DNA from: an uncultured Gemmatimonadota bacterium
GTDB taxonomy: Bacteria > Gemmatimonadota > CAZMKB01
Assembly: GCA_964654825.1 (NCBI GenBank)
Contig: CAZZKG010000014.1
Coordinates: forward strand, 1,416 to 65,415
Length of the DNA stretch: 64,000 nt
Direction of reading: 5' to 3'
Position numbers and translations under genes: made by a program. Positions 16,315-33,995 of the stretch are shown here, piece by piece. Position 1 is the stretch's first letter. Every line of letters starts with the position of its first letter. The notes beneath the pieces were generated by a model. The model had not been told where the DNA came from. It was given only the letters and a program-made list of their open reading frames with translations, and did not search any database.

Positions 16315-17176
16315 TCTCGACAGATTCGATCGTGTCCTTCAGAGTATCATACAGATGACATCCGCTCCTGCTATCTTCTCTCGCTACGGGGGGCAGCTCG
16401 AGGTCCGGCGCTGTTCCCTCTTCATATTTTTCCAGCTTGGCGCTCACCGATCCGATGATTATGGATGTTTTCACCTGCACCGGTATCTTCTTCTCATCAG
16501 CGGTCAGCCAGATCCAGATCTTACCCCGTGACTTGAAGATGCCAACGTCTTTGATATCCGGTTCCACGACAAAACAGGTAAATTTGCCGGCAGGTACTTT
16601 CACCCGCTCTCTCCTCGTTACCTTCACCTCCAGCGGATAGTTCTTCTTGTTGTCGTGGTGCGGTATCGCGATCTTCCTGCCCACATGAAGTTCCTGGTTT
16701 CTGAGGTAGTAGAGGGACGATAGCACATCCTGCGTGTCGGCAGCGGTTTCGAGTGTGTCACCATCCGGATAGTAAGCGAGTGCCAGCTCCGGATCGAAAT
16801 CAACCATGAAATCTTTTTTATATTTTCCCTCCCTGAGATGCTTCACCAGGCGCATGCTTGCGAGATCGAAGATGTTGATGTAGGAGTCGACCTGATCATC
16901 GACCCGAAAAAAGGTCGAGAAGGTGGGGGTGGTCATGGCCTTCGACTGGATGTGGTAGCACGGTATTCCTCGGACGGTATCGATCCCGACGACTGACATG
17001 TAAGCTTTGGCCGCGGTGATAAAACCGTATTCGACACTGTAGGTAAATTTTTCTCCAGGAGCATAGGGGACCTGAGGCAGATACACCGTACTGCTGTCAG
17101 GCAAGGAAGAAGCGAGGGACATCCCGGCTGCAGTCAGAACATATAAAACAGTGCTCCAGACAAGTCTCATCATCAA
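16208..17176 (-). CDS. Secreted DUF3108-like protein with an acidic C-terminal tail; translationally coupled to the upstream GT2 gene
   Basis: Signal peptide. The central region resembles the DUF3108 family. There is a 4-nt ATGA overlap with the GT2 gene at 17173-17176. The acidic tail overlaps the annotated DHS-like start by ~100 nt. Confidence 0.5.
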   Translation of the reverse strand: MMMRLVWSTVLYVLTAAGMSLASSLPDSSTVYLPQVPYAPGEKFTYSVEYGFITAAKAYMSVVGIDTVRGIPCYHIQSKAMTTPTFSTFFRVDDQVDSYINIFDLASMRLVKHLREGKYKKDFMVDFDPELALAYYPDGDTLETAADTQDVLSSLYYLRNQELHVGRKIAIPHHDNKKNYPLEVKVTRRERVKVPAGKFTCFVVEPDIKDVGIFKSRGKIWIWLTADEKKIPVQVKTSIIIGSVSAKLEKYEEGTAPDLELPPVAREDSRSGCHLYDTLKDTIESVEIEGEQHEIEIPPQDAGSEENQDVPFQSEEEPGQSE

Positions 17177-17919
17177 ATTTCGCGTTTACTCCAGTGGTTT
17201 GAAACCAGCCTGATGTGATTGGCGACCATTTCGACGGTCTTCATCCTGGTCTTACGATCCCGGATGTCATAACGCTGCCGGCATGGTACCTCGGCGATGC
17301 GATTAGACAAACCTGCAACATGGACGAGCAGCTCGGTATTCGCAGCTTTGGTCCTGAAATTGAGAAGACCATCCTCGTATTTACCCAGGAGCCTCTTCAA
17401 AACCGTCATCCGGTATGCTCTGAGCATCGAGAGATAGTCTTTTACCCCTTCGATAGCGTACAGGTTCCTGAGCAGCAGATGAAGGAGAATCGTGGTGAAC
17501 CTGACCTTGAAAGGAGCATTCACCACTTCTCCGCCTTTCGTGAATCCGGAGGCTATTACCACATCGGCGCCTTCCTCTATCGCTCTCACCATGTCCGGAA
17601 CCGTACTCGAGTCACTTGTAAAATCGGTCTCGACTGTGATAAGGATATCTCTTTCGGGAGATTTCGAATCGTCGGTGGCTATCTGGATGAGTTTTCTGAG
17701 ACAGTACCCCAGACCCATGTTTTCTCTATTCCTGACGGTTGTGAGCGGGAGCAGCTTCTCGTATGTCTTCACCATTTCCCAGGTGTTGTCCGTACTGTTA
17801 TCATCCAGGGTGACGATCTTGAAATTACCCCTGAGGCCTTCCATGACCTCTTTCAGTTTGTACAGCGTAATCCCTATGGTGGGTTCCTCATTGTAAACGG
17901 GTAAGCAGAAATATATCAC
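17173..17919 (-). CDS. GT2 glycosyltransferase (polyprenyl-phosphate sugar transferase, DPM1/GtrB-like)
   Basis: IYFCLPVYNEE...VTLDDNSTDNT... GT-A fold motifs. Confidence 0.8.
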   Translation of the reverse strand: MIYFCLPVYNEEPTIGITLYKLKEVMEGLRGNFKIVTLDDNSTDNTWEMVKTYEKLLPLTTVRNRENMGLGYCLRKLIQIATDDSKSPERDILITVETDFTSDSSTVPDMVRAIEEGADVVIASGFTKGGEVVNAPFKVRFTTILLHLLLRNLYAIEGVKDYLSMLRAYRMTVLKRLLGKYEDGLLNFRTKAANTELLVHVAGLSNRIAEVPCRQRYDIRDRKTRMKTVEMVANHIRLVSNHWSKREI

Positions 17920-17936
17920 TTTCCCTCTCCTGATTA

Positions 17937-19343
17937 TCAGTATGCGTGATCATCGCGTAAAAACTTTGCGATCGTCAACAGAATAATTTTTACGTCGAAC
18001 CAGAATGACCAGTTTTTGATGTAGAAAAGATCCATCTGCGTTCGCGTCTCTATCGGTGAATCACCTCGCAGCCCGTTCACCTGTGCCCATCCCGTGATGC
18101 CGGATTTTATCTTGTGCCGCATCATGTACCTCGGGATTCTCTTTTTGAAAGCGTCGACGAACACTTCGCGCTCGGGCCTCGGTCCGACAAAACTCATGTC
18201 ACCTTTGAACACGTTCCAGAACTGCGGGAGCTCATCCAGGCTGAATTGTCGGAGAAACTTCCCCATGGTTGTACGCCTCGGATCATTCTTCCTCGCCCAC
18301 ACCGCACCTGTTTCCCTTTCTGCATCCTCTCTCATGGACCTGAACTTGTACATTGTGAACTTGCGTCCATCATACCCGATCCTCTCCTGAATGTAGAACA
18401 CCGGTCCCGGGCTGGTGAGTTTGACGAGCAGCGCGATCAGGGCGAGAACAGGCGAGAGGACCAGGAGACCGAGGAGAGACAGGGAAATGTCGAATGCCCT
18501 CTTCGAGACCCTTCGCAACCCGTGAAGCGGACGCTCGGTGAGGTTGATGATGGGCATCCCCTCGAACTCTTCCGCACTCGCGTTGAGGGCGACGAACTGG
18601 GAAAAATCCGGTATGATCCTGATGTCGACCACCTGCTCACTCAAAAGCCATAAAATATGTTCGAGGTCCCGATCGGCATGTCTCGGGAGCGCGATGAAAA
18701 CCTGGTCGATCGTCCGTTCACCGAGCACACTCGTCAGATCCTCTATCTTCCCAAGAACCGGTATCCCCGGGAGCGGCTCTTCCCCTATCACCAGGCCATC
18801 ATCCACAAACCCTTCGAGGATGAGACCCAGGTGCGTGTGTTTTTCGATGTTGCGGGCGAACTCCAACCCTGAGTGACTCGCGCCCACAATCAGGATATAG
18901 CGTAGATTGAAACCCTTAGCCCTAAGGTACCGCAGGATGAGTTTGACACCGATCCTGAACGACGAGAGCCCGAGAACGGTTATAAACCAGAAGTAGACGA
19001 TCATGCCCCGGGACAGCGAAATCCCCCGGTAGAAGAATGTCACGATACCTGCGATGCATATTGCCAGTGTGATCCCCTGAACGATTCTCGTAACCTCCCA
19101 GGAGAGTTTCTGGGTTCTCCTGGACCGGTAGAGCCCCCGTGTCTGTAGAGTAAAGAGGCTGATGAGGATCATGAGAGTCGAGAACAGAAGATAGGACGTG
19201 ATCGGGGGAAGCCCCTTGACGAGTCTCCCGGGGAACAGGGAAAAACGTAGATGGTATGCAGCAATCCACGATCCCAGGATGATGGCGGCATCGCTTGCCA
19301 TGAGCGACACTACGAAGAGCCTGCTGTACCGTTTAAGCATCAA
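17937..19343 (-). CDS. Undecaprenyl-phosphate sugar phosphotransferase (WbaP/WcaJ/EpsL family), the initiating enzyme of polysaccharide assembly
   Basis: N-terminal TM helices plus a C-terminal bacterial sugar transferase domain (...KRAFDISLSLLGLLVLSPV...PGPVFYIQERIGYDGRKFTMYKFRSM...DELPQFWNVFKGDMSFVGPRP...). Confidence 0.85.
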   Translation of the reverse strand: MMLKRYSRLFVVSLMASDAAIILGSWIAAYHLRFSLFPGRLVKGLPPITSYLLFSTLMILISLFTLQTRGLYRSRRTQKLSWEVTRIVQGITLAICIAGIVTFFYRGISLSRGMIVYFWFITVLGLSSFRIGVKLILRYLRAKGFNLRYILIVGASHSGLEFARNIEKHTHLGLILEGFVDDGLVIGEEPLPGIPVLGKIEDLTSVLGERTIDQVFIALPRHADRDLEHILWLLSEQVVDIRIIPDFSQFVALNASAEEFEGMPIINLTERPLHGLRRVSKRAFDISLSLLGLLVLSPVLALIALLVKLTSPGPVFYIQERIGYDGRKFTMYKFRSMREDAERETGAVWARKNDPRRTTMGKFLRQFSLDELPQFWNVFKGDMSFVGPRPEREVFVDAFKKRIPRYMMRHKIKSGITGWAQVNGLRGDSPIETRTQMDLFYIKNWSFWFDVKIILLTIAKFLRDDHAY

Positions 19344-20511
19344 AAACCTCTGCCCTCTTCAGACACCTCTCGACTTCAGCTTTAAATTTTTCCCTGAAGA
19401 CCTCCGGCCGGAATCCCAGCGCCATATCTCTCAGTGAACGGGGGTCGAATTTGGAACCTTCGATGAGATCCATTCCATTAATAATAGCCGAAACATCTTC
19501 TTTTGGAAAGAGCACCCCGCCGCTTACACGGACAGGATCGGTGAACAACGGTACTCCACGCCCCGCTTCTACGAGGTGATCACTCTCCCCCGGGCCGGTG
19601 ATCGTTTCGAGCACCCCTCCCCTTCCATAGGCCAGGACCGGCCTCCCGCAGGCAAGCGCCTCGAGGGGGACTATCCCGAAATCCTCTTCTCCCGGGAAGA
19701 TGATTGCCCTCGCCTTCGCAAGACACTTCACGAGCTCTCTGTGTTCGAGCCACCCCAGAAACCTAATGGATCGGCTCGCCCCGACCAGTTTCTTCAGCCG
19801 TTTCTCATCCTGACCCGTGCCGATGAGGTACAGGGTCCGGCCGCTTCTCCTGCATGCCTCGATGGCCAGGTCGGCACGCTTGTAAGGCGCGAATGATCCG
19901 AGGTAGAGATAGTAGTCTTTGACGTCTTCATCGATGTAAAAATCCCGCACCTCAACCGGAGGGTAGACGACAGTCGAATTCCTGCGGTAGAACTTGGTTA
20001 CCCTCCTCTTCACATGCAGGGAATCCGTAATAAAATGATCAACCCTGTGTGATGAAGCCGCGTCCCAGGTCCGAAGTGCTGAGAGCACAGGTGCGAGTAA
20101 AGCTTTGAACGGCCGGCTCATTCTGTCAGCCCCGAAATATTCATCACCCAGCACCCAGGCGTACCTCATGGGTGTCAGAACGTAGGATATGTGAGGACAG
20201 TAGGGCGGAGTGATGACCCCCTTCGCGGCACAGTGACTGATGGAGATTACGAGATCGTAGCCCCTCAGATCGAACGCTTCGACGGCAAACGGGTACAGAG
20301 GCAGATAGTACCGGTAAAACCTGTCCTTCAGTGGGAATCGGTCGAGGAAGGAAGTGTGAACGACCCTTTTCTCGATGTCCGGATGAACCGAACCTCTCTT
20401 CCAGAATATCGTGTAGAGGTGAGCTCCTGGAAAAATGTCGAGCACATGTTTCAGAACCTTCTCCCCTCCCCTCATCCCCGTCAGCCAATCGTGAACTATG
20501 GCAACATTCAC
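19333..20511 (-). CDS. GT4 glycosyltransferase
   Basis: GT-B fold with the C-terminal GT4 motif ...EDFGIVPLEALACGRPVLAYGRGG... . Confidence 0.75.
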   Translation of the reverse strand: MNVAIVHDWLTGMRGGEKVLKHVLDIFPGAHLYTIFWKRGSVHPDIEKRVVHTSFLDRFPLKDRFYRYYLPLYPFAVEAFDLRGYDLVISISHCAAKGVITPPYCPHISYVLTPMRYAWVLGDEYFGADRMSRPFKALLAPVLSALRTWDAASSHRVDHFITDSLHVKRRVTKFYRRNSTVVYPPVEVRDFYIDEDVKDYYLYLGSFAPYKRADLAIEACRRSGRTLYLIGTGQDEKRLKKLVGASRSIRFLGWLEHRELVKCLAKARAIIFPGEEDFGIVPLEALACGRPVLAYGRGGVLETITGPGESDHLVEAGRGVPLFTDPVRVSGGVLFPKEDVSAIINGMDLIEGSKFDPRSLRDMALGFRPEVFREKFKAEVERCLKRAEVFDA

Positions 20512-20514: not shown

Positions 20515-21798
20515 TCACCTGTCCGGTTCGGCTTCAGTGAAAAGAAATTTCCTGAGGAAGTAAACAATATATACACCGCCGAACACCCTGACGGCAAGTG
20601 AGCTGAAGGCGGCCCCGAGCCCCCCGTAAAGCGGAATGAGTACGAGGTTACCGGCGAAATTGATCCCGAGCTGTGCCAGATTGAGATAGGCGAGCAGCTC
20701 GACCCTGTCCAGAGAATAGAGCGCGAGGCTCGCCGGGTTGCATATCACACTCACCAGGAAGCACAGGAGAAGGACCCTGAATATTGGAACGGCATCGATG
20801 AACCGTGCCCCGAACAGGGTACCCACAACAGGCCGTGCGAACAGGAGGAGAGGGACTGCAACGAGGATCGAGAGTGGAGTGAAACGCAGGGTGTCAACAA
20901 CGTACCTTCGGAGCTCGTGCCTGCCCGTCAGTCCCGTTGCCTTCGGGAGAAGAGCCGTGGTGAGTGCGCCGGTGACCAGGGGAAAAAGATAGGCGAGCTG
21001 GCTGGCGCTCGAGTACCTGCCGACCTCTCCGGAACCTGCCATGGCGGTCAGCATGAGAACGTCCAGCCGGATGATGAACATGGTGGCGAATGTCGACACC
21101 ATGACCCATTTCCCGAATCCCATGATCTCTTTGATCACAGCTGTCGTGTCTCCACGAGCACCCATGAATGTCCGCGGGATGAGGGTCATGCCGAGGAGGA
21201 AGGCAATGAACGGCGCAGCGGCGAACGCAATAATGACTGAATCGGGCTCCATTCTACCCAGAAATACGAGGAGGGCGACGAGGATTACCTGTACCGCCCC
21301 CTGGGTCACGGCAACCAGCACGTACCGCCTGAAGCTCTGGTATGTCTGGAGAACTCCGAGAGGGAAATTCGCAAGCAGAATACAGAAGGATCCGCAGAAG
21401 GCAACCAGAAGGGGAAGCGCGAGCTCAACCTTGCCGAACACCCCGGTGGCTATTCGCGGGGCGGCGAGCATCAGCAGCACGAGTACCGGCAGGCCGAGGA
21501 GTAATTTCAGGAGAAAGGTGGTCTTGAATATGAATGCTGTTTTCCCCGGTTCCTTTTCCAGGTATTTGGACCCGTACCGGACGGAGCTCGTGGAGAGGCC
21601 GAAGTCGACCGCCTGAGCCGACAGAGTCATGACCGCCTGGGCCGAGGCTACGATCCCGAAGCCCTCCGGTCCGAGTCCCCTGATGGCGAGAAGGTTCGAC
21701 AGGAAAACGAGTATCGATTTGAACGTGTTGCCGAAGAAGACAGTGGCAACGTCCCTGGCGGTTTTTCCCTTTAACCTCTGGAGGATTTCGTTGTACAT
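20515..21798 (-). CDS. wzx: Polysaccharide flippase (Wzx, MOP superfamily)
   Basis: ~12 predicted TM helices and polysaccharide-biosynthesis-protein family features. Start consistent with MYNEILQRLKGKTARDVATVFFGN. Confidence 0.75.
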   Translation of the reverse strand: MYNEILQRLKGKTARDVATVFFGNTFKSILVFLSNLLAIRGLGPEGFGIVASAQAVMTLSAQAVDFGLSTSSVRYGSKYLEKEPGKTAFIFKTTFLLKLLLGLPVLVLLMLAAPRIATGVFGKVELALPLLVAFCGSFCILLANFPLGVLQTYQSFRRYVLVAVTQGAVQVILVALLVFLGRMEPDSVIIAFAAAPFIAFLLGMTLIPRTFMGARGDTTAVIKEIMGFGKWVMVSTFATMFIIRLDVLMLTAMAGSGEVGRYSSASQLAYLFPLVTGALTTALLPKATGLTGRHELRRYVVDTLRFTPLSILVAVPLLLFARPVVGTLFGARFIDAVPIFRVLLLCFLVSVICNPASLALYSLDRVELLAYLNLAQLGINFAGNLVLIPLYGGLGAAFSSLAVRVFGGVYIVYFLRKFLFTEAEPDR

Positions 21799-23027
21799 GC
21801 CCCCTCACCACCCCCGAGGGAATGATAGAACCGTGAGATGCTGTCCGTATCCCTTGAGACGAACAGCTCCTGTGCCGCCCTCCTGCACTTCTCCCGGATC
21901 TCCGCCTGGTTCACGCGGTATTGTGTAATAAACTCGACGATCCGATCGATATCGTCTCTGATCGTATCGGTACTCATAACGACTCCGAGACCCCTCTGCT
22001 CCACGACTCCACTCGCGTCCCCGACTCCCTCTGAGATTATAACGGGCAATCCGCACGCAAGGTACTCGGGGAACTTGCGAGGGGATGCCACCCTGCTCAT
22101 CTCGTTCGCATCTCTGAGGAGCACACCCAGGTCTCCCATGGCAAGGTACTGCGGCATGTCGTCAAAATCGAGCCTCATGGGGGCAACGTTACCGCGAAAG
22201 GAGCCGTGTTCTCTGAGGAACTCCTTCAGACCTTTCTGGTGCAAAGTGAAGAGGAGGAGATACGCATCAGGCACACTGTCGAGAACACCCCTGAACAAAC
22301 GGGCAATCGCACCGGGGCATTGATGGGGCATGAGACTTCCCGAGTGAATCAGGATCAGCCTGTCATCGATTCCGAAAAGATTTCGGTAGTAATTCCGGCT
22401 CTCCGGCCTCGGTCTGAACGAGGCTTCGATGGTGTTGGGCTCGACGAGGATTCTCTCCCCGGGATAGGACAGCACTTCCGTGAGACGATCTCTGAACGGC
22501 TGACTCACACACACCACACCGTGGGAATTCACGAGCGCCCGTCTCTCGATCAGTTTGAGGACCATATAGCTGATGCCGCGGAAGAAGACACTCGTCCGGG
22601 AGCGAACATCCTCCGGCACCAGATTGTGATAATCGAGCACAATGGTACAGTGTTTCCGGGCGGTCCTCCCGAGAAGTGGAAGAATGGCGAAGAGATTTTC
22701 TATGTGTATGCGGGCGATCTCGCCCCTCCTGATCATTTTCTTCAGCACCTTCCTCACCCGGTAAATCGCCGTGATAATAAAAAAGTACCTAATGATGAGA
22801 ATGTCGGGCGAAAGGAAAAAATCCAGGCTGTCGAGGTCGAGGGGTATGAGTTTCGACTTGAGCAACTTGAGGTTCGCTCCCCCTCCGACTCCGAAGACGA
22901 TCATGTAGACGGGTCCGAGTTTGCCCAGTTTGGATATCTGGCTTTTCACGCGTTCCCGGTATGCAGCGTCCTTCAGGATGATGTGACTCGAAACGACCAG
23001 AGTGCCGTCATGAGAAGAATCAGGCAA
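21771..23027 (-). CDS. GT4-like glycosyltransferase
   Basis: C-terminal GT4-type motif ...SPRKFPEYLACGLPVIISEGVGD...; first gene of the minus-strand glycan operon. Confidence 0.65.
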   Translation of the reverse strand: MPDSSHDGTLVVSSHIILKDAAYRERVKSQISKLGKLGPVYMIVFGVGGGANLKLLKSKLIPLDLDSLDFFLSPDILIIRYFFIITAIYRVRKVLKKMIRRGEIARIHIENLFAILPLLGRTARKHCTIVLDYHNLVPEDVRSRTSVFFRGISYMVLKLIERRALVNSHGVVCVSQPFRDRLTEVLSYPGERILVEPNTIEASFRPRPESRNYYRNLFGIDDRLILIHSGSLMPHQCPGAIARLFRGVLDSVPDAYLLLFTLHQKGLKEFLREHGSFRGNVAPMRLDFDDMPQYLAMGDLGVLLRDANEMSRVASPRKFPEYLACGLPVIISEGVGDASGVVEQRGLGVVMSTDTIRDDIDRIVEFITQYRVNQAEIREKCRRAAQELFVSRDTDSISRFYHSLGGGEGACTTKSSRG

Positions 23028-23236
23028 AAAGCCTCCTCACCGATTCGGTTCCTTGATTTTCGGCAGTTCCCTTTTGCTCATGGCTGATCATCGAACCCGG
23101 TGGTGATGTGTACGGAAGGTCAAAGTGAATATCCTCGCTGTCTAGTAATAACATGGTGTGTGAATCCTGTCAACTTTTTCCGCGCCGAAGATCTGAGGAG
23201 GATCGCACATCACATATCTTCCCCTGTATGGTGGAC

Positions 23237-24608: not shown

Positions 24609-24621
24609 GGAGGGTATCACG

Positions 24622-26500: not shown

Positions 26501-26552
26501 AGCTCCATCATACAGTTATCGATCGGTTGTTTCTGCCTCAAAGGAGGTAGTG

Positions 26553-27122
26553 ATGAGGAACTTTCTCCAGAGAACAGCACGGCTCCTCTCGGGACTCGCC
26601 TGGAAGGAGCCATCCTTCAAGCTCAGGGGTCACCATGTCGAGATCACCAGGGACAGCGTCTTCGGCGACAGCGAGAATATCTCCTTCGGGAATTATGTCT
26701 ACATCGGACCGGAGGCGTACTTCTGGGGAGTGGGCGGGATTACGCTCGATGACCATGTCATCATCGGGCCGCGGGTAACGATTGTTTCGTCCAATCACCG
26801 CTACGAGGGAGCCGAGGCGATTCCCTACGACGGTACCACCATCCTCGGGCCTGTCAGAATATGCTCCCACGTATGGGTCGGTGCGGGAACACTCATCGTT
26901 CCCTCTGTAACCGTAGGCGAAGGTGCCGTTATCGCCATGGGTTCCGTCGTGACGAAGAATGTCCCTCCGTGTATGGTTGTCGGCGGAAACCCCGCGGTGA
27001 TCATCAAGGAGCGGGACAGGGAAGCGTACGAGAGACTGAAACGAGAGAGCAGATTTTACCTGGAAATGAAGGCGAGAGGAGAAATAACCTGGAGAAAGGT
27101 CTTTGAGGATGAGATCCGTTAA
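26553..27122 (+). CDS. Left-handed beta-helix (hexapeptide-repeat) O-acetyltransferase
   Basis: Hexapeptide repeats ...IGPRVTIVSSNH..., VWVGAGTLIVPSVTVGEGAVIAMGSVV. Start taken at the Met after an AAAGGAGG RBS; the track's longer 26382 start overlaps the GT4 gene. Confidence 0.75.
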   Translation: MRNFLQRTARLLSGLAWKEPSFKLRGHHVEITRDSVFGDSENISFGNYVYIGPEAYFWGVGGITLDDHVIIGPRVTIVSSNHRYEGAEAIPYDGTTILGPVRICSHVWVGAGTLIVPSVTVGEGAVIAMGSVVTKNVPPCMVVGGNPAVIIKERDREAYERLKRESRFYLEMKARGEITWRKVFEDEIR

Positions 27123-28314: not shown

Positions 28315-29222
28315 AGGTATCGCTCATCGCCACGGTTCTCAACGAGGAGGGAGGGATCGAGAAATTTATCAAATCGATCCTCTCTCAATCAAGGCTTCCC
28401 GATGAGATCGTTCTGGTCGACGGCGGGTCCACCGACCGGACGGTTTCCCTCATCGAACAACACCTCGCGGGCGATGTCCCCGTCAGACTCATCATCAATC
28501 CGGGATGTAACATCTCAGAGGGAAGAAACCGTGCTGTGCGAGAAGCTTCTTTCGACGTCCTGGCCGTCACCGATGCAGGATGCCTCCTCGAGGCAAGCTG
28601 GCTGGAGGAGATCACCGCCCCGATGGAGAGCAATCCGGCCGTCGATGTCGTGGCAGGTAGCTACCGGGTCTCGGCTCAGAGCAGATGGGAACGGGTAACA
28701 TCAGCGTATCTCATGCCCTGTCCGGACCGCATAAGCCCCGGGATGCCATCAGGCAGGTCGACATGTTTCCGGCGGAGTGCCTGGGAAGCGGCGGGCGGGT
28801 ATCCTGAGTGGCTGCGTCACGCCGAAGACAGCTACTTCGCCCGAGAACTGGCGAGACGGGGTTCGCGTTTTCATTTCGCGCCCGGGGCGATCGTCAGGTG
28901 GAAACCGAGATCGACACCGTGGTCTTTTTTCAAACAGTACTTCCGCTATGCCGTCGGCGACGGGAAATCAGAGTTGTCCACCCGGCACTATTTACTCAAG
29001 ATAATGTTATATCTTTCGGGCCTGATCCTCGCGCTGGCCGGGAAGATCAACGTACTCCTCTTCCTCATCGCTCTCTACGTCATTTTCGTGATGGTCCGCT
29101 ACCTGGTGCGGGGCAAGGAAAGACATCTCCTCTGGATGCTCCCCCCGGTTATTTTTCTCCATGATATTGCCCAGGTGACCGGTTATATTTTCGGTACAAT
29201 CTCCGGGGGATCCGAAACGTGA
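28311..29222 (+). CDS. GT2 glycosyltransferase
   Basis: VSLIATVLNEEGGIEKFIKSILSQ...DEIVLVDGGSTDRT... . Confidence 0.75.
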   Translation: MKVSLIATVLNEEGGIEKFIKSILSQSRLPDEIVLVDGGSTDRTVSLIEQHLAGDVPVRLIINPGCNISEGRNRAVREASFDVLAVTDAGCLLEASWLEEITAPMESNPAVDVVAGSYRVSAQSRWERVTSAYLMPCPDRISPGMPSGRSTCFRRSAWEAAGGYPEWLRHAEDSYFARELARRGSRFHFAPGAIVRWKPRSTPWSFFKQYFRYAVGDGKSELSTRHYLLKIMLYLSGLILALAGKINVLLFLIALYVIFVMVRYLVRGKERHLLWMLPPVIFLHDIAQVTGYIFGTISGGSET

Positions 29223-29241: not shown

Positions 29242-30342
29242 ATGAAAATCGGTATTGTCGCCTACAAGTTCTTCCCGGTCGTGGGGGGCGCGGAAGCTTA
29301 CCTCCATGACCTGCACGGAATCCTCTCCGCAGCCGGCCACTCGGTGACCGTGTACCAGGCCCGTTCCGGCGAACGTCATCCGGGCATACACAGCCTCCCG
29401 AAACTGCCTGCATTCGTACCGAAACTGATTGCCTTTGACCTGGTTCTTCCCCTGGGCCTCCCCCGGCTGGTCCGGGAGGACATAGTCATCATCAGCTATC
29501 CTGAACATTTCCCGCCTATCTTCTGGCATCCACGTACAATCGTCATCTCACACGGATCGACGTGGACTCACGAACCGGAGGGTGTCAGAAAGGATCTCAG
29601 GATGTTGTCGGCGCGATGGGCTTACAGGAAAGCGAAAGGGTTCGTTTTCAATGACACGTTCACGCTGAGAGAGCTGGGGGTCCCGATAAAGCCGGGCGAG
29701 ATGGCCTTCTCCCAGGTGACAGAGAGAAGATGGTACATCCCCAACTGCGTGGACACAGGGCTCTTTACCAGGCGTCCCGGAATCCGGAAGATCGTGGATA
29801 AAAAACCGATACTCGTCCCGAGAAATTTTACCTACCCCCGGGGGATAGATCTCGCACTCGAGGCCTTCTCCCGGTTACTGGATTATCGGCAGGACGTGCA
29901 TCTTCTTCTCGCCGGGGAGGCCATCAGGGACATGCCGGAGTCCATCCGGTACGAGCAGGAGCTCCGAAGTATGGTGGAACGTCTATCACTCCATGAGAAA
30001 GTCTCATTCATCGGCAGGTACTCCCGCTCTGAAATGCCCGCTGTCTATTCGTCAGCGCTGGTAACTCTCATACCTTCCAGGATGAGCGAAGGGACATCTC
30101 TAGCCGCACTGGAGAGCATGGCGTGCGGTACCCCGGTCGTGACAACTCACGTGGAAGGCCTCATGGATATACCGGGACTCAAGTGCCTCCCCACACCTGA
30201 CGGTATCTTACAGGGCCTCAGGACAGCCCTCGAGACTCGGGAGGAGCTGGCGACGGAGCAGCAAAAGGAAGTGCGGGAGAAATTCGACAGGAAGCTCTGG
30301 GAGAAGGGCTGGCTCAGGGTTATCGAGGAGGTCTCGGGGTGA
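29242..30342 (+). CDS. GT4 glycosyltransferase
   Basis: MKIGIVAYKFFPVVGGAEAY... and C-terminal ...EGTSLAALESMACGTPVVTTHVEGL... . Confidence 0.75.
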   Translation: MKIGIVAYKFFPVVGGAEAYLHDLHGILSAAGHSVTVYQARSGERHPGIHSLPKLPAFVPKLIAFDLVLPLGLPRLVREDIVIISYPEHFPPIFWHPRTIVISHGSTWTHEPEGVRKDLRMLSARWAYRKAKGFVFNDTFTLRELGVPIKPGEMAFSQVTERRWYIPNCVDTGLFTRRPGIRKIVDKKPILVPRNFTYPRGIDLALEAFSRLLDYRQDVHLLLAGEAIRDMPESIRYEQELRSMVERLSLHEKVSFIGRYSRSEMPAVYSSALVTLIPSRMSEGTSLAALESMACGTPVVTTHVEGLMDIPGLKCLPTPDGILQGLRTALETREELATEQQKEVREKFDRKLWEKGWLRVIEEVSG

Positions 30343-30746
30343 AAATCGGCATCGATGTCAGGAAAATCCGGGACACCGGCATCGGGACATACATCAGGAA
30401 CATCATCACCCGGATGCTGTCCATCGGGGATGATGAGAAAGAGTTTGTCCTCTTTGGCCATCCCGGCGACAGGGACTACCTCAACCTGCCCGTCTCAGAA
30501 GCAATGGCGAAAGGCGTGCCTGTTGTGGCCTCCGGCGTCTCGAGTCACCCGGAAGTCGCCGGTGACGCGGCTCTCATGGTCGACCCCGAAGATCACCGGG
30601 GTGCGGCGGAGGCGATGATTAGGATAGTCACAAACCGGGAGGAACGCGACTCATTCATCCGGAGAGGACTCGAGCGGGCCAGGCTCTTCACCTGGGATGA
30701 AACAGCCAGAAAGACTCTCGCCTGTTACCGGGAGGTACGGGCATGA
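30339..30746 (+). pseudogene. Internally deleted GT4 glycosyltransferase remnant (135 aa, in-frame, still translationally coupled to both neighbours)
   Basis: The first ~50 aa (MKIGIDVRKIRDTGIGTYIRNIITRML...) match a GT4 N-terminus. Residues ~51-135 (VSEAMAKGVPVVASGVSSHPEVAGDAALMVDPEDH...FTWDETARKTLACYREV) match a GT4 C-terminus. The ~230-aa middle is missing. 4-nt ATGA overlaps at both ends. Confidence 0.5.
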
Positions 30747-31615: not shown

Positions 31616-32362
31616 GTGACACACAGGTATGACGAGTTCCACAGCAGCTTCGCGAAGACCCGGCCGCAGGAACGTCTTATCGACAGGAGCAGCTTCACCT
31701 ATATCAATTTCTTTCGTTTCGTACTTCCGGTGATCGAGGCGGCACAGCCGGGACACATCCTCGACATCGGATCAGGCGCAGGGACAATCAGCCTGTTTCT
31801 CGGAAACCTCGGGTACCACACCGCCGGTGTCGACATCTCTCCGATCGCGGTCGGTGCTTCACGAGATTCAGCCCGCAGTATGGGATTGGAGGATCTGGTC
31901 AGCTTCGTCCACGCTGACTTTTCCCGGTTAGAGATGGAAACCCGATTCGATGTGGTTCTCTGCCTCGAAGTCATCGAACACCTGGAGGAGGATGATCGTT
32001 TCCTTTCGCAGGTCACGGGTGTTCTCCGGGAGAGCGGTCTCCTGATTATCTCAGCCCCGCTCTCGACGGCACCGCTCACGAGACTCGGCCTCACGAACGA
32101 GTTCGACTCCACGGTGGGGCATCTCCGGAGGTACCGTGAGGATCAGCTCATCAGGAAAATCGAGAACGCGGGTTTCGGCGTCGAACGGGTGACAACCACC
32201 GAGGGGATCCTGAGGAACAGCCTCTTCGTATTCAAACCCCTTCATGTCCTCGTTCGATGTGTGCGCGGCCGGTTCATCACTCGTCTGATCACGGCAGTTG
32301 ATGACCTCGCTGGCATGCTCCTCGGCTGCTCCGACATAATCATTGTGGCCCGGAAGAGTTGA
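31616..32362 (+). CDS. Class I SAM-dependent methyltransferase
   Basis: Motif I ILDIGSGAGTISLFL; post-I VDISP; ...LEVIEHLEED... . Confidence 0.75.
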   Translation: MTHRYDEFHSSFAKTRPQERLIDRSSFTYINFFRFVLPVIEAAQPGHILDIGSGAGTISLFLGNLGYHTAGVDISPIAVGASRDSARSMGLEDLVSFVHADFSRLEMETRFDVVLCLEVIEHLEEDDRFLSQVTGVLRESGLLIISAPLSTAPLTRLGLTNEFDSTVGHLRRYREDQLIRKIENAGFGVERVTTTEGILRNSLFVFKPLHVLVRCVRGRFITRLITAVDDLAGMLLGCSDIIIVARKS

Positions 32363-32432
32363 TGGTAAATCAATGGGCATACTGCCGTACCGAGAAAACG
32401 AGAACCCGAAATTTTTCACTCTCTGACCGGAG

Positions 32433-33995
32433 GTGGAAACGTTGAGAAAACCTGCATCGAAACTGTTATTGCTCACCCTGTTCTTCGCTCTCGTTTCGAC
32501 CGCTCACGGCGGAGACGAATCCCCGTATATCTATTCTTCGAGAGAAAACGTCCCCCGCCATTTGTCCTTCGTCACGGACAACCCGAAGTTCAACAGAATG
32601 TGGACCGAAACGATCATCGAAATCCTCTCCCGACAACTTGCGAACGGACAGCTGATCGAGAGTTCCGTCGAGTCGGGGCTCTATCCGAACAGCTTCCCCC
32701 GCAGCGTCACTCCAGTCATCCTCATCAAGAGCGGATACCTGGACCAGGCCCGGAAACGGCTCGATTTCCTCTGGGATCATCAGAAAAAAAACGGCTCGTT
32801 CTGGAATTTCCACGATCGGGAAGCGAAGGGAGGGGGAATCGTCGAGGAAGACGGCGGGTGCTACGTCGTCGGGCAAACCTATCTCTACTACCTGTACTCG
32901 GGAGACAGGAGTTACCTGGAGAAGCGGTGGAGTAAAACAGTAAGATCGATGAATTTTCTCGAAGATCTCTTTGACAAAGAGCTCAACCTCTTCTATTCCA
33001 CGGCCGGATACTCGGAAGGGAACATCAGGGGAGGATATAACATCTATCACCAGGCGATATCCGCCTACGGATTCCGGTCGGCAGCTGGTATCGCCCTGGC
33101 ACTCGGAAAAGACGGGGCCGCCGGCCGATACACTTCGTATGTCGAAAAGGTAAAAAAGGGTGTCTACGAGAACCTGTACAACCGGGAGAAAGAGAGGTTT
33201 TCCTTCCAGAGAAGCTCTGAAGGCGGGTTCTTCGATCCGCCGTATCCGGCTTTTCTCGTCCTCTCCTACTATGACATACTGGATCCCCGTGAGAAGTCAT
33301 TCGAAAACTCCTTCACCTACATGATGGAAGGTCCACGCTTCGGCGTGTACAGGGATGAGATCTTCGGGCTGGAACCGTTCGATCACAACCACTCTACCGG
33401 GAGAGGTTTCTGGCTCGGACAGAACGGTCACGGGTGGGTCATCCCCTATCTCCTGAAAGCGGGGAGGATGGAGGAAGCCGATGATTGGATCAGGAGTCTC
33501 ATCTCGATGACGGACGAGAAAACGTTTCTCGTTCCCGAGCACATCAACTGGAGTCACTGGGACCCTGACGGCGGCGAGTGGGCGGGCAAAAAGTACGGTG
33601 TGTACCCCGAGCCCTCGGCGTGGGTCGATCCGGGGAACCTCTACGCTCTCTCCACTGCCATGCACATGGTTTTCACCATCGTGGACGCCGATCCGGGAGA
33701 CCCGGGGCAGACCGTGTACTTTCGAGTCCCCCCTTCATTCGGTATGGTCGCAGTCACCAATCTCAGATCGACTCACGGGTACATCGATGCCAGTTTCGTT
33801 CAGTACGAAGGGAGCGTAAAGATTTCGATCGCCGGAGAAGGCGAGGGGAAGATCGTCATCGTCGGTCACGGTGAAACGGCGGAAGTCGAGAGGGACGGCA
33901 TACTGTACGACCGGTGGGTCATCGATCAGAACGGAGACCTCGACATCAGCACGGATTTCGAGCTGCACAAGTTTGTGATTCACAGCGGTGAGTAG
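32433..33995 (+). CDS. Secreted (alpha/alpha)6-barrel glycoside-hydrolase-like protein (glucoamylase/GH15-GH63-like fold), last gene of the plus-strand glycan operon
   Basis: Signal peptide; recurring aromatic/acidic helix-hairpin pattern. The family assignment is tentative. Confidence 0.45.
   Translation: METLRKPASKLLLLTLFFALVSTAHGGDESPYIYSSRENVPRHLSFVTDNPKFNRMWTETIIEILSRQLANGQLIESSVESGLYPNSFPRSVTPVILIKSGYLDQARKRLDFLWDHQKKNGSFWNFHDREAKGGGIVEEDGGCYVVGQTYLYYLYSGDRSYLEKRWSKTVRSMNFLEDLFDKELNLFYSTAGYSEGNIRGGYNIYHQAISAYGFRSAAGIALALGKDGAAGRYTSYVEKVKKGVYENLYNREKERFSFQRSSEGGFFDPPYPAFLVLSYYDILDPREKSFENSFTYMMEGPRFGVYRDEIFGLEPFDHNHSTGRGFWLGQNGHGWVIPYLLKAGRMEEADDWIRSLISMTDEKTFLVPEHINWSHWDPDGGEWAGKKYGVYPEPSAWVDPGNLYALSTAMHMVFTIVDADPGDPGQTVYFRVPPSFGMVAVTNLRSTHGYIDASFVQYEGSVKISIAGEGEGKIVIVGHGETAEVERDGILYDRWVIDQNGDLDISTDFELHKFVIHSGE

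What the first reader, a model, noticed from the sequence alone, without database searches (positions are those of the whole stretch)
17173..33995. ~17 kb exopolysaccharide/O-antigen-type locus organised as two divergent operons, with acetyl, pyruvyl and methyl decoration genes
The minus-strand operon reads GT4, Wzx flippase, GT4, initiating undecaprenyl-phosphate sugar phosphotransferase, GT2, DUF3108. The plus-strand operon reads the two novel repeat proteins, GT4, LbH acetyltransferase, pyruvyl transferase, GT2, GT4, GT4 remnant, GT2, SAM methyltransferase and a secreted (alpha/alpha)6 glycosidase-like protein. Many genes overlap by 4 nt (ATGA), indicating tight translational coupling. No Wzy polymerase, Wzz/Wza export or ABC exporter is visible inside the locus. 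The only Wzy/WaaL-like gene is in the separate LPS-core locus at 56.6 kb. Polymerisation or export is therefore either encoded elsewhere or this is a single-unit glycan, such as a lipid-linked oligosaccharide for protein or LPS glycosylation.
Basis: partly seen in the sequence, partly recalled or inferred. Interest (0 to 1): 0.55.

Follow-up and report, generated by a model that had tools for sequence, protein, structure and literature searches.

The report
Surface-sugar assembly gene cluster, LPS-linked
This is a real but fairly ordinary gene cluster that builds a decorated sugar unit on a lipid carrier and flips it across the inner membrane, and comparison with related uncultured bacteria suggests the unit is attached to the outer-membrane lipopolysaccharide, not exported as a separate capsule.

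Summary
It comprises a WcaJ-type initiating phosphoglycosyl transferase, a Wzx flippase, seven intact glycosyltransferases plus one internally deleted GT4, an LbH acetyltransferase, a CsaB-like pyruvyltransferase, a SAM methyltransferase and a secreted (alpha/alpha)6 enzyme. No Wzy, Wzz/Wzc, Wza or glycan ABC exporter lies in the locus or anywhere in the window. The same holds for about ten related loci from uncultured Gemmatimonadota/Glassbacteria MAGs.

The new result comes from comparison. In four relatives the same genes form one co-directional block, directly downstream of GT9 heptosyltransferase-like genes and a Wzy_C protein. A profile of those Wzy_C proteins matches only the solved O-antigen ligase WaaL. 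The window's two divergent operons are therefore a rearranged form, and its "separate" core locus at 53-59 kb is the positional counterpart of that block.

The two repeat proteins are followed by a conserved terminator and are probably their own transcription unit.

The most likely product is an LPS O-unit or outer core. Whether it is polymerised is unresolved. It is a new member of a known kind, of modest interest.

The parts
21771..23027 (-). GT4 glycosyltransferase (GT4a, 418 aa). It is the first gene of the minus-strand unit.
   Evidence: Pfam Glyco_transf_4 2.8e-9. Orthologues at 49-51% identity in L003, L007, L008 and L010; absent from L002, L005, L009 and L015.
20515..21798 (-). Wzx-type MOP flippase (427 aa, about 10-12 TM segments).
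   Evidence: Pfam Polysacc_synt 3e-23 and Polysacc_synt_3 4.8e-20. Hydropathy scan. Present in every related locus that covers the region.
19333..20511 (-). GT4 glycosyltransferase (GT4b, 392 aa).
   Evidence: Pfam Glycos_transf_1 1.5e-19. Orthologues at 44-74% identity, always next to the PGT.
17937..19343 (-). Initiating large monotopic phosphoglycosyl transferase of WcaJ/WbaP type (468 aa; likely start ATG at 19340).
   Evidence: Bac_transf 1e-72 plus CoA_binding_3. NCBIfam TIGR03023 'undecaprenyl-phosphate glucose phosphotransferase' 495.3 bits against a cutoff of 410.75. Matches solved WbaP structures at E 1e-38.
17173..17919 (-). Small soluble GT2 (GT2a, 248 aa). It weakly resembles polyprenyl-phosphate hexose synthases (DPM1/ArnC/PpgS-like).
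   Evidence: Glycos_transf_2 2e-20. NCBIfam weak hits of 1e-10, below cutoffs. No TM segment. Follows the PGT in L002, L003 and L010.
16208..17176 (-). Secreted DUF3108 protein (322 aa). It is distal in the minus unit and lies outside the finding's stated start coordinate.
   Evidence: PF11306 3.8e-44. Overlaps the GT2a stop. Syntenic in L003, L004 and L010.
15337..16314 (-). GSU2086-family protein. It overlaps the end of the DUF3108 gene, and its membership of the cluster is uncertain.
   Evidence: NCBIfam NF052581 401.7 bits against a cutoff of 250. Syntenic in L003 and L004.
23028..23483 (.). A 456-bp divergent intergenic region. It ends with a strong Shine-Dalgarno sequence (AAAGGAGG) before the first repeat-protein gene.
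   Evidence: Sequence. Only the SD is conserved among relatives. The promoter-like matches are not informative.
23484..24608 (+). RepOmpA: signal peptide, two ~105-aa beta-rich repeats and a C-terminal OmpA-type peptidoglycan-binding domain (374 aa).
   Evidence: Translation. OmpA 3.1e-19. 44% identical to Rep2 over 249 aa. Heads the cluster in all relatives.
24622..25386 (+). Rep2: signal peptide plus the same two repeats, with no anchor domain (254 aa).
   Evidence: Translation. Only 10 homologue clusters in 5.8 billion proteins. 76 representatives at E<1e-3 in 1.84 billion. All-beta model with pLDDT 68 and no informative fold match.
25419..25446 (+). Terminator-like hairpin GGGTAGAG..CTCTACCC followed by T7. 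It lies between Rep2 and the first GT gene.
   Evidence: Fold energy about -20 to -27 kcal/mol for most intergenic segments folded. The same stem with a variable loop occurs in L002, L003, L005, L007 and L009, and a different GC-rich hairpin in L010. Not listed by the consensus scan.
25454..26500 (+). GT4 glycosyltransferase (GT4c, 348 aa). It is a core member of the cluster.
   Evidence: Glyco_transf_4 2.7e-13 and Glycos_transf_1 2.9e-10. Orthologues at 37-58% identity in all relatives.
26550..27122 (+). Left-handed beta-helix O-acetyltransferase, WcaF/maltose acetyltransferase-like (about 190 aa; the longest ORF begins at 26382).
   Evidence: Hexapep 6.6e-10. NCBIfam WcaF-family 8e-21, below cutoff. 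Start at codon 57/58 after AAAGGAGG. Relatives are 189-190 aa.
27109..28314 (+). Polysaccharide ketal-pyruvyltransferase, closest to CsaB (401 aa).
   Evidence: PS_pyruv_trans 1.1e-35. NCBIfam TIGR03609 CsaB 133 bits over the full length, against a cutoff of 213; WcaK matches only at the N-terminus. Absent from L008, L010 and L014.
28311..29222 (+). Membrane-anchored GT2 (GT2b, 303 aa, two C-terminal TM segments). It is a core member of the cluster.
   Evidence: Glycos_transf_2 2.8e-22, Glyco_trans_2_3 and Glyco_transf_21. TM segments at 228-266. ATGA overlap with the pyruvyltransferase gene. Orthologues in all relatives.
29242..30342 (+). GT4 glycosyltransferase (GT4d, 366 aa).
   Evidence: Glycos_transf_1 5.2e-23. 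Orthologues at 62-68% identity wherever the LbH and pyruvyltransferase genes are present.
30339..30746 (+). GT4 with an in-frame internal deletion (135 aa). It keeps the N-terminal ~48 and C-terminal ~87 residues of a 364-aa enzyme and is presumably inactive.
   Evidence: Alignment with the full-length L002, L005 and L015 orthologues. tblastn split hits. Identical in metagenome contig L001.
30743..31612 (+). GT2 glycosyltransferase (GT2c, 289 aa). It is found only in this lineage.
   Evidence: Glycos_transf_2 9.3e-11. No counterpart in any related locus.
31616..32362 (+). Class I SAM-dependent methyltransferase (248 aa).
   Evidence: Methyltransf_23 7.4e-18 and Methyltransf_11 4.6e-17. Orthologues at 51-55% identity in L003, L005, L007 and L009, and 30% in L014.
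32433..33995 (+). Secreted (alpha/alpha)6-barrel plus beta-sandwich glycoside-hydrolase-like protein (520 aa).
   Evidence: Signal peptide. No Pfam hit. Model with pLDDT 79 and pTM 0.83. Best PDB matches are GH78 alpha-L-rhamnosidases, E 4e-14, TM 0.62-0.65. Only 15 homologue clusters.
34020..35111 (-). SGNH/GDSL hydrolase with a T9SS type-A-like C-terminal domain (363 aa). It adjoins the cluster in nearly all relatives.
   Evidence: Lipase_GDSL_2 1.1e-22 and FlgD_ig 1.3e-6. Weak PorU/PorZ CTD-region hits. Synteny.
53337..56584 (+). Core-type glycosyltransferase block: GT9 (53337-54569), GT4 (54379-55707) and GT2 (55736-56584).
   Evidence: Pfam. Heptosyltransferase I/III weak hits at 2e-19. 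39%, 37% and 32% identity, in the same order, to the block that directly precedes the cluster in L015.
56587..57759 (-). Wzy_C-domain membrane protein (390 aa). It is the candidate O-antigen ligase; a polymerase or O-oligosaccharyltransferase is not excluded.
   Evidence: PF04932 7.7e-14. About 8 TM segments. ~25% identical to the cluster-adjacent Wzy_C of L002, L014 and L015. No PDB match alone or as a two-sequence profile. The local gene order is conserved in L016.
57892..58809 (+). GT2 glycosyltransferase, the last gene of the core-type block.
   Evidence: Glycos_transf_2 6.2e-8. 74% identical orthologue next to the Wzy_C gene in L016.

Best explanation
The locus is a lineage-specific cluster, found in uncultured Gemmatimonadota/Glassbacteria, that assembles one complex oligosaccharide unit on undecaprenyl phosphate.

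Proposed steps:
1. The WcaJ-type PGT transfers a hexose-1-phosphate, predicted to be glucose-1-phosphate.
2. Up to seven cytoplasmic or membrane-associated GT4/GT2 enzymes extend the unit. An eighth GT4 has been inactivated by an in-frame deletion.
3. Three cytoplasmic enzymes add O-acetyl, ketal-pyruvyl and methyl groups.
4. Wzx flips the finished unit to the periplasmic face.
5. The most likely fate is transfer by a Wzy_C (WaaL-like) ligase onto lipid A-core made by the GT9/GT4/GT2 block. The product would then be an LPS O-unit or outer core, exported by the normal LPS route, which would explain why no Wza/Wzc/ABC exporter is needed.

The 'two divergent operons' are a rearranged version of a single co-directional LPS supercluster seen in relatives. 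In this genome that supercluster has been split into a unit-assembly part (15.3-35.1 kb) and a core/ligase part (53.3-58.8 kb).

Shown: gene identities, absence of polymerase and export genes, synteny, the deletion and the terminator.

Inferred: substrate, order of steps, ligation to LPS, and whether the unit is polymerised.
For: - The PGT is above the curated WcaJ cutoff and matches solved WbaP structures.
- No multi-TM candidate other than Wzx and the PGT is present. No Wza/Wzc/Wzz/Wzm-Wzt hit occurs in the 64-kb window.
- L002, L005, L014 and L015 read GT9...Wzy_C-GDSL-GH-like-RepOmpA-Rep2-GTs/Wzx...PGT, all on one strand. L015 shows the left boundary of this block.
- A profile dominated by these cluster-adjacent Wzy_C proteins hits only the O-antigen ligase structure 7TPG, E 1.3e-10.
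- The window's GT9, GT4 and GT2 genes at 53-56.6 kb are 39%, 37% and 32% identical, and in the same order, as the L015 block.
- Gene content varies among relatives. The acetyl/pyruvyl/GT4d module, the methyltransferase, GT4a, GNAT+PIG-L and GT87 come and go around a constant PGT/Wzx/GT core. This is the pattern expected of a serotype-like surface glycan.
- None of about ten related loci carries export or chain-length genes.
Against: - The window's own Wzy_C protein is only ~25% identical to the cluster-adjacent one in relatives. It cannot be classed as ligase, polymerase or O-OTase by sequence.
- In the relatives closest to the window (L003, L004, L007) no Wzy_C lies within 10 kb of Rep2.
- A WcaJ-type initiating enzyme, acetyl plus pyruvyl decoration and an associated secreted glycosidase are more typical of acidic exopolysaccharides than of O-antigens.
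- Adjacency to core genes in relatives could reflect general clustering of envelope genes, not a shared pathway.
- The whole genome was not available, so wzy, wzz and wza elsewhere cannot be excluded.
Confidence: 0.5

Rival explanations
1. The locus makes a conventional Wzx/Wzy-dependent acidic exopolysaccharide or capsule of the colanic-acid, xanthan or succinoglycan type. Its polymerase (Wzy), co-polymerase (Wzc/Wzz) and outer-membrane exporter (Wza) are encoded elsewhere in the genome. The secreted glycosidase-like protein and SGNH esterase trim or remodel the polymer.
For: - The PGT scores above the WcaJ and EPS_sugtrans cutoffs.
- A WcaF-like acetyltransferase and a pyruvyltransferase are present.
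- Seven GTs suggest a large repeat unit.
- A secreted (alpha/alpha)6 GH-like enzyme and an SGNH hydrolase adjoin the cluster in most relatives. From established knowledge, this parallels ExoK, PslG and BcsZ-type accessory hydrolases.
Against: - No Wza/Wzc/Wzz/Wzy lies in the 64-kb window or within +/-10 kb of the cluster in about ten relatives. In the model systems these genes sit inside the cluster.
- The cluster adjoins GT9 core-type genes and a WaaL-like protein in four relatives.
- The pyruvyltransferase is CsaB-like, not WcaK/GumL/ExoV-like.
Confidence: 0.25
2. The locus makes a non-polymerised, single-copy oligosaccharide. The unit would serve as a cap or linker on LPS that anchors type IX secretion cargo, as the P. 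gingivalis A-linking saccharide does. Alternatively it would be the donor for general protein O-glycosylation by a Wzy_C-domain oligosaccharyltransferase.
For: - The organism has T9SS parts: a PorX equivalog (593 bits against a cutoff of 300) directly upstream of the core/Wzy_C block, and type-A CTD proteins.
- The SGNH hydrolase beside the cluster carries a CTD-like domain.
- CTD proteins are inserted within or beside the cluster in L005 and L007, and beside the repeat-protein pair in L012.
- The locus has a PGT and a Wzx but no polymerase.
- Veith et al. 2026 (PMC13086638) show that P. gingivalis cargo is tethered through one copy of a pentasaccharide, proposed to be WbaP-initiated and flipped as an Und-PP-linked unit, that is never polymerised.
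- A pyruvyl ketal would make the unit anionic.
Against: - No Wbp/Vim-type genes for an amino-uronic linking sugar are present, and no nucleotide-sugar genes of any kind lie in the locus.
- The P. gingivalis linker needs a separate polymerised O-antigen, for which there is no evidence here.
- T9SS cargo genes are probably numerous in such genomes, so adjacency may be chance.
- Relatives L008, L010 and L014 lack the pyruvyltransferase.
Confidence: 0.12
3. The 17-kb span is not one functional system. The repeat-protein pair, the GH-like protein and the SGNH hydrolase are unrelated envelope genes that merely neighbour a smaller glycan cluster.
For: - A conserved terminator follows Rep2.
- In L012 a RepOmpA/Rep2-like pair occurs with no GT genes.
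- In L013 the GH-like gene sits with GH57, GNAT and PIG-L genes and no GT cluster.
Against: - RepOmpA-Rep2 immediately precede a GT gene of the cluster in every related locus from the Gemmatimonadota/Glassbacteria set, despite three different overall arrangements.
- The first GT start lies only ~8-15 nt after the terminator T-run, leaving no room for a separate promoter.
Confidence: 0.13

Closest known systems
Wzx-dependent O-antigen unit assembly with WaaL ligation (enterobacterial rfb/waa paradigm; solved WaaL structure 7TPG)
   Same: - Und-P-linked unit started by a WbaP/WcaJ-family PGT, extended by GT4/GT2 enzymes and flipped by a MOP-family Wzx.
- A Wzy_C-domain protein sits beside GT9 heptosyltransferase-like genes, contiguous with the cluster in four relatives.
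- No dedicated exporter is needed.
   Different: - No Wzy polymerase or Wzz was found near the cluster in any genome examined.
- No nucleotide-sugar genes are present.
- The unit carries acetyl, pyruvyl and methyl decoration together.
- The cluster is headed by two OmpA-anchored or free repeat proteins and is accompanied by a secreted GH78-like protein and an SGNH hydrolase.
- In this genome the ligase/core block lies about 18 kb beyond the last cluster gene, and its Wzy_C is only ~25% identical to the relatives' version.
Acidic EPS clusters: colanic acid (wca), xanthan (gum), succinoglycan (exo)
   Same: - Glucose-1-phosphate-type initiating transferase.
- Multiple GTs.
- Cytoplasmic acetyl- and pyruvyl-transferases.
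- Wzx flippase.
- An accessory secreted glycanase in some systems.
   Different: - These clusters contain Wzy, Wzc/PCP and Wza/OPX genes, and none is present here.
- The pyruvyltransferase here is closest to CsaB, not to WcaK.
P. gingivalis A-LPS linking saccharide (A-LS) pathway (PMC13086638)
   Same: - The organism has a T9SS.
- The oligosaccharide is WbaP-family-initiated and flipped as an Und-PP-linked unit, without its own polymerase.
- The final product is LPS-bound.
   Different: - No Wbp/Vim genes for the SAGA linking sugar are present.
- No evidence exists for a separate polymerised O-antigen.
- The composition is unknown.
- The decoration enzymes are of a different kind (pyruvyl, acetyl, methyl).
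CsaB-dependent pyruvylation of lipid-linked cell-wall glycans (Paenibacillus alvei; PMC6030368, PMC6801904)
   Same: - The best-matching characterised pyruvyltransferase family.
- By analogy, it acts in the cytoplasm on a lipid-linked precursor.
   Different: - The score is below the CsaB family cutoff.
- No SLH-domain proteins are present in the window.
- The organism is a diderm FCB-group bacterium.
- A UDP-GlcNAc 2-epimerase gene lies beside the cluster only in relative L007.

Membership tests
Wzx/Wzy-dependent polysaccharide pathway | Initiating polyprenyl-phosphate phosphoglycosyl transferase | tested here: met
   Bac_transf 1e-72. TIGR03023 at 495 bits against a cutoff of 411. WbaP structures at E 1e-38.
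Wzx/Wzy-dependent polysaccharide pathway | MOP-family Wzx flippase | tested here: met
   Polysacc_synt 3e-23 and Polysacc_synt_3 4.8e-20. About 10-12 hydrophobic segments.
Wzx/Wzy-dependent polysaccharide pathway | Wzy polymerase encoded with the cluster | tested here: not met
   No further multi-TM ORF lies in 15.3-35.1 kb. None is present in related loci. The single Wzy_C protein at 56.6 kb is of unresolved type.
Wzx/Wzy-dependent polysaccharide pathway | Chain-length regulator or co-polymerase (Wzz/Wzc) and OPX exporter (Wza), as required for capsule/EPS versions | tested here: not met
   No such Pfam hit among the window's ORFs or in the gene lists of relatives. The rest of the genome was not available.
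LPS O-antigen / outer core ligated by WaaL | Wzy_C-domain ligase associated with lipid A-core glycosyltransferases | tested here: inconclusive
   A Wzy_C gene is embedded in a GT9/GT4/GT2 block in the window. In relatives that block adjoins the cluster, and a profile dominated by their Wzy_C proteins hits only WaaL 7TPG, E 1.3e-10. The window's own protein gives no PDB match.
LPS O-antigen / outer core ligated by WaaL | Glycan covalently attached to lipid A-core | not testable with these tools
   Requires LPS chemistry or genetics.
Colanic-acid / xanthan / succinoglycan-type acidic EPS | Glc-1-P initiating PGT plus cytoplasmic acetyl- and pyruvyl-transferases | tested here: met
   The pyruvyltransferase matches CsaB over its full length and WcaK only at the N-terminus.
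Colanic-acid / xanthan / succinoglycan-type acidic EPS | In-cluster Wzy, PCP and OPX genes (WcaD/Wzc/Wza; GumE/C/B; ExoQ/P/F) | tested here: not met
   and the relatives.
P. gingivalis-type A-LPS linking saccharide | T9SS present in the organism | tested here: met
   PorX equivalog at 593 bits against a cutoff of 300. Por_Secre_tail / type-A CTD proteins at 6267-10085.
P. gingivalis-type A-LPS linking saccharide | Wbp/Vim pathway genes for the amide-forming linking sugar | tested here: not met
   No dehydrogenase, aminotransferase or Vim-type genes lie in the locus or the window. The rest of the genome was not seen.
P. gingivalis-type A-LPS linking saccharide | Cargo proteins covalently bound to the glycan by PorU | not testable with these tools
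   Requires mass spectrometry of surface proteins.
CsaB / SLH pyruvylated cell-wall glycan system | CsaB-family ketal-pyruvyltransferase | tested here: inconclusive
   TIGR03609 at 133 bits over the full length, against a cutoff of 213.
CsaB / SLH pyruvylated cell-wall glycan system | SLH-domain proteins as ligands of the pyruvylated glycan | tested here: not met
   No SLH hit in any scanned ORF of the window. The genome-wide state is unknown.
Bacteroidota-type general protein O-glycosylation (lfg-like) | Wzx plus GTs without a polymerase, with transfer of one unit to periplasmic and outer-membrane proteins | not testable with these tools
   The genetic pattern is compatible. The acceptor cannot be inferred from sequence.

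The most novel reading that the evidence does not exclude
The cluster would make a non-polymerised, pyruvylated (anionic), acetylated and methylated LPS cap. In Glassbacteria/Gemmatimonadota this cap would serve as the surface anchor or ligand for type IX-secreted proteins. The rare peptidoglycan-anchored RepOmpA/Rep2 pair would be its dedicated periplasmic lectin-like partners. The GH78-like enzyme and the T9SS-secreted SGNH esterase would act as maturation enzymes. Together these would form a second, independently evolved solution to the A-LPS problem outside Bacteroidota.
Probability: 0.1. Interest if true: 0.7.

Novelty: new member of a known kind. Interest (0 to 1): 0.35.

Why it matters
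For annotation, two loci in this window that look separate (15-35 kb and 53-59 kb) are probably halves of one LPS-type pathway. The absence of polymerase and export genes is a conserved property of the lineage, not an assembly gap.

For biology, the cluster gives a first view of envelope-glycan genetics in Glassbacteria/Gemmatimonadota, which have no cultured representatives and no described surface glycans. It also identifies a conserved set of accessory proteins worth testing: two rare OmpA-linked repeat proteins, a GH78-like periplasmic enzyme and a T9SS-type SGNH hydrolase.

If the glycan proves to be a single-copy anionic LPS cap in a T9SS-bearing non-Bacteroidota lineage, it would bear on how T9SS cargo is anchored outside Porphyromonas.

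Tried and rejected
- **Source contig.** An exact look-up of the 100%-identical Rep2 protein (P0001, on a 71,345-bp NCBI contig) returned no record. The ~7 kb outside the window could therefore not be read. As a substitute, homologues of the relatives' Wzy_C were searched for, and none lies on that contig.
- **Wzy_C classification.** A PDB sequence search with the window's Wzy_C gave nothing, whether alone or as a two-sequence profile with its L016 orthologue. Ligase versus polymerase is unresolved for the window's copy.
- **Promoter and terminator scan.** The consensus scan (searches failed on range) gave no useful promoter and missed the Rep2 terminator, which was found by eye and by folding.
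- **Region upstream of RepOmpA.** Aligning this region across relatives showed only a conserved Shine-Dalgarno sequence.
- **Hidden Wzy candidates.** The unannotated 489-aa ORF next to the SGNH gene in L003 has no hydrophobic segments and ends like an outer-membrane beta-barrel. It was rejected.
- **GT2b as a synthase.** At 303 aa with two TM segments it is too small to be a processive synthase, and it matches non-processive GT2 families. It was rejected.
- **Horizontal transfer.** GC content across the locus (0.50-0.58) lies within the window's range, so there is no signal.
- **Structures for other proteins.** PDB searches for the DUF3108 protein and the pyruvyltransferase found nothing.

Full report
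**Observation**

The minus strand reads, in transcription order:
- GT4 (21771-23027)
- Wzx (20515-21798; Polysacc_synt 3e-23)
- GT4 (19333-20511)
- a large phosphoglycosyl transferase (17937-19343; Bac_transf 1e-72 with CoA_binding_3)
- a small GT2 (17173-17919)
- DUF3108 (16208-17176)

The phosphoglycosyl transferase is above the curated cutoff of TIGR03023, 'undecaprenyl-phosphate glucose phosphotransferase' (495 against 411 bits). It matches solved WbaP structures at E 1e-38.

The plus strand reads:
- two signal-peptide repeat proteins, 44% identical to each other, the first ending in an OmpA peptidoglycan-binding domain
- GT4
- an LbH acetyltransferase
- a PS_pyruv_trans enzyme
- a GT2 with two C-terminal TM segments
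- GT4
- a 135-aa GT4 fragment
- GT2
- a class I SAM methyltransferase
- a 520-aa secreted protein with no Pfam hit

The model of the 520-aa protein (pLDDT 79, pTM 0.83) is an (alpha/alpha)6 barrel with a beta-sandwich. It is closest to GH78 alpha-L-rhamnosidases (E 4e-14, TM 0.62-0.65).

A hydropathy scan finds no multi-spanning protein in the locus other than Wzx and the PGT. Pfam scans of the rest of the window find no Wza, Wzc/Wzz or Wzm/Wzt. The only ABC systems are Opp-type ATPases and a Znu-type zinc importer.

**Corrections to the observation**

- DUF3108 lies just outside the stated start coordinate. A GSU2086-family gene overlaps its end.
- Four-nucleotide overlaps occur at only three or four of sixteen junctions (ATGA at 28311 and 30743, GTGA at 30339, TTGA at 17173). 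Several apparent long overlaps disappear once realistic starts are used. LbH starts near 26550-26553 after AAAGGAGG, giving ~190 aa as in relatives, and the pyruvyltransferase starts at 27109.
- The 'GT4 remnant' is an in-frame internal deletion. It keeps residues ~1-48 and the last ~87 residues of a 364-aa GT4 that is intact in L002, L005 and L015.
- Between Rep2 and the first GT gene lies a strong hairpin followed by T7 (25419-25446). Its stem sequence, GGGTAGAG/CTCTACCC, is conserved with a variable loop in five relatives, and L010 has a different GC-rich hairpin at the same place. The GT start follows within ~8-15 nt. The repeat-protein pair, which also has a conserved strong Shine-Dalgarno sequence, is therefore probably a highly expressed unit. 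The GT genes would then be expressed by read-through.

**Relatives**

Rep2 has only ten homologue clusters among 5.8 billion proteins. An exhaustive profile search finds 76 representatives at E<1e-3 among 1.84 billion. The GH-like protein has fifteen homologue clusters.

Their genomic contexts were recovered from metagenomes and MAGs and mapped with tblastn. The MAG records are labelled uncultured Gemmatimonadota or Candidatus Glassbacteria. Glassbacteria is a class of Gemmatimonadota in GTDB.

The same gene set occurs in at least three arrangements:

| Loci | Arrangement |
|---|---|
| L003, L004 | As in the window, including gcvP-gcvH-GSU2086-DUF3108 on the left. They lack the GT4 fragment and the window-specific GT2c. 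|
| L007 | Two T9SS-CTD proteins are inserted between the divergent halves. |
| L002, L005, L009, L014, L015 | Entirely co-directional. |
| L010 | RepOmpA-Rep2-GT4a-GT4c-Wzx-GT2b-GT4-GT4b-PGT-GT2a-DUF3108 on one strand. |

Gene content splits into constant and variable parts:
- **Constant:** RepOmpA, Rep2, GT4c, Wzx, GT2b, GT4b, the PGT and GT2a.
- **Variable:** the LbH-pyruvyltransferase-GT4d module, the methyltransferase, GT4a, the extra GT4, GNAT+PIG-L (L014), a GT87 GT-C enzyme (L005) and a phosphodiesterase-family gene (L008).

A constant initiation, flipping and backbone core with shifting side-chain and decoration genes is the usual signature of a diversifying surface glycan.

**The key comparative result**

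In L002, L005, L014 and L015 the cluster is immediately preceded, on the same strand, by a Wzy_C gene and the SGNH hydrolase gene. In L002, L014 and L015 the held sequence also shows GT9 (heptosyltransferase-family), GT4 and GT2 genes ahead of the Wzy_C gene. In L005 the held sequence begins within the Wzy_C gene.

L015 shows the full block: GT9-GT4-GT9-GT4-GT2/GT9 fusion-Wzy_C-SGNH-GH-like-RepOmpA-Rep2-GT4-Wzx-LbH-Pyr-GT2-GT4-GT4-GT4. It starts after an oppositely oriented acetyl-CoA synthetase gene.

The cluster-adjacent Wzy_C proteins are mutual orthologues at 53-85% identity. A profile built mainly from them matches exactly one set of solved structures, the O-antigen ligase WaaL of Cupriavidus (7TPG/7TPJ), at E 1.3e-10. 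By established knowledge, a GT9...waaL arrangement is the pattern of enterobacterial waa operons.

The window has a counterpart of this block at 53.3-58.8 kb. Its GT9, GT4 and GT2 are 39%, 37% and 32% identical to the first GT9, the first GT4 and the GT2 half of the fusion in L015, in the same order. They are followed by a Wzy_C gene on the opposite strand and a further GT2. This local order is conserved in another metagenome contig, L016, at 58-75% identity.

In this genome the halves are separated by a pentose-phosphate operon and a few unrelated genes.

**Limits of that inference**

- The window's Wzy_C is only ~25% identical to the relatives' version.
- It gives no PDB match, alone or as a two-sequence profile. 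Its class (ligase, polymerase or O-oligosaccharyltransferase) is not established.
- No orthologue of the relatives' Wzy_C is on the contigs of the window-type genomes.
- The full genome was not available. The exact look-up of the source contig failed.

**Most likely mechanism**

1. The PGT transfers hexose-1-phosphate, predicted to be Glc-1-P, to undecaprenyl phosphate.
2. GT4a-d and GT2a-c extend the unit. One further GT4 is inactivated by the deletion.
3. The LbH acetyltransferase, the pyruvyltransferase and the methyltransferase all lack signal peptides and TM segments. They therefore act in the cytoplasm on the lipid-linked intermediate. The pyruvyltransferase is CsaB-like, with a full-length match at 133 bits against a cutoff of 213. 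CsaB is documented to act in this way (PMC6030368).
4. Wzx flips the unit.
5. A WaaL-like Wzy_C protein transfers it to lipid A-core, and the Lpt pathway exports it.

This model explains the lack of exporter genes. Steps 1-4 rest on family membership. Step 5 rests on synteny and on the WaaL profile match. No polymerase or chain-length regulator accompanies the cluster in any genome, so a single-unit (semi-rough or LOS-like) glycan is as likely as a polymer made by a Wzy encoded elsewhere.

The roles of the GH78-like periplasmic protein and the CTD-bearing SGNH hydrolase (trimming, de-O-acetylation) are conjecture. So is any role for the repeat proteins (tethering to peptidoglycan, or glycan binding). 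Two observations show these links are not obligatory:
- The repeat-protein pair occurs without GT genes in L012.
- The GH-like gene occurs without a GT cluster in L013.

**Rivals**

1. **Acidic EPS or capsule with Wzy/Wzc/Wza elsewhere.** This is favoured by the WcaJ-type PGT, the acetyl plus pyruvyl decoration and the accessory hydrolases. It is disfavoured by the consistent absence of export genes and by the adjacency to core-type genes.
2. **Single-copy linker or protein-glycosylation donor.** The window encodes a PorX equivalog (593 bits against 300) directly upstream of the core/Wzy_C block, and several type-A CTD proteins. T9SS has been reported as possibly present in Gemmatimonadetes (PMC11285876). 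Recent work shows that P. gingivalis anchors T9SS cargo through one copy of a WbaP-initiated pentasaccharide that is never polymerised (PMC13086638). Against this reading, no Wbp/Vim-type genes are present, and three relatives lack the pyruvyltransferase.
3. **The span is a neighbourhood of unrelated envelope genes.** The terminator after Rep2, and the loci L012 and L013, give this some weight.

**Verdict**

This is a new member of a known kind, a Wzx-dependent lipid-linked glycan unit cluster, in an uncultured lineage. It is most likely LPS-directed, and it carries a conserved but unexplained set of accessory proteins. Interest is modest: nothing in it contradicts current models, and the polymerisation question needs a complete genome or chemistry to resolve.

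Noticed in passing
window 25419-25446; L002 ~10770-10800, L003 ~10800-10828, L005, L007, L009 at the equivalent position: A terminator-like hairpin with a conserved stem (GGGTAGAG/CTCTACCC), a variable loop, an upstream A-run and a downstream T-run lies between Rep2 and the first GT gene. The stem sequence is conserved although the flanking proteins are only 56-72% identical. The consensus terminator scan did not list it.
   Followed up: partly
window 51884-53455 (+): This is a receiver plus PglZ protein scoring as an equivalog of the T9SS response regulator PorX (593 bits against a cutoff of 300). It sits directly upstream of, and overlaps, the GT9 gene of the core/Wzy_C block. A regulatory link between T9SS and LPS genes was not tested.
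   Followed up: partly
window 23484-25386; L012 6276-11827: The RepOmpA/Rep2 repeat domain is very rare: 10 close clusters in 5.8 billion proteins and 76 profile hits in 1.84 billion. It has invariant NH..DP and EYWQ motifs and only a faint DUF5719 resemblance. In a MAG labelled Chromatiales, which nevertheless carries a Por_Secre_tail protein, a RepOmpA/Rep2-like pair lies beside that CTD protein with no GT genes nearby. A third, truncated RepOmpA-like copy lies within what looks like a 3.7-kb duplicated segment, possibly an assembly artefact.
   Followed up: partly
L001 2044-2545 and 6166-7037 (equivalent to window 26550-27122 and 30743-31612): An independent metagenome contig (JGI 3300002231) is 98-100% identical to the window over 11.8 kb. 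It has frame disruptions in the LbH acetyltransferase gene and in the lineage-specific GT2c gene. These could be strain-level pseudogenisation or sequencing errors.
   Followed up: no
L013 10001-13343; L014 3962-8081: In more distant relatives the GH78-like gene is followed by a GNAT (Acetyltransf_9) gene and a PIG-L deacetylase gene. In L013 this happens beside a GH57 gene and without any GT cluster. The GH-like protein may therefore belong to a separate small module.
   Followed up: no
L005 1642-4323 and 5367-6680; L007 3186-8739 and 19181-20290: Relatives carry extra genes inside or beside the cluster: an M28 peptidase with a T9SS CTD and a GT87 (GT-C) enzyme in L005, and two large CTD proteins and a UDP-GlcNAc 2-epimerase in L007. 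The epimerase would supply ManNAc, the known acceptor sugar of CsaB.
   Followed up: no
window 39599-42460 (-): A 953-aa ORF combines a transaldolase domain with a phosphoglucose isomerase domain. It lies within a pgl-glk-zwf-gnd-tal/pgi-tkt pentose-phosphate operon that separates the two halves of the glycan supercluster.
   Followed up: no
window 6267-8033 and 8235-10085 (-); 34020-35111 (-): Three proteins carry FlgD_ig / Por_Secre_tail type-A C-terminal domains: an FG-GAP repeat protein, an unknown 616-aa protein and the SGNH hydrolase. This indicates a working T9SS cargo repertoire in this non-Bacteroidota lineage.
   Followed up: partly
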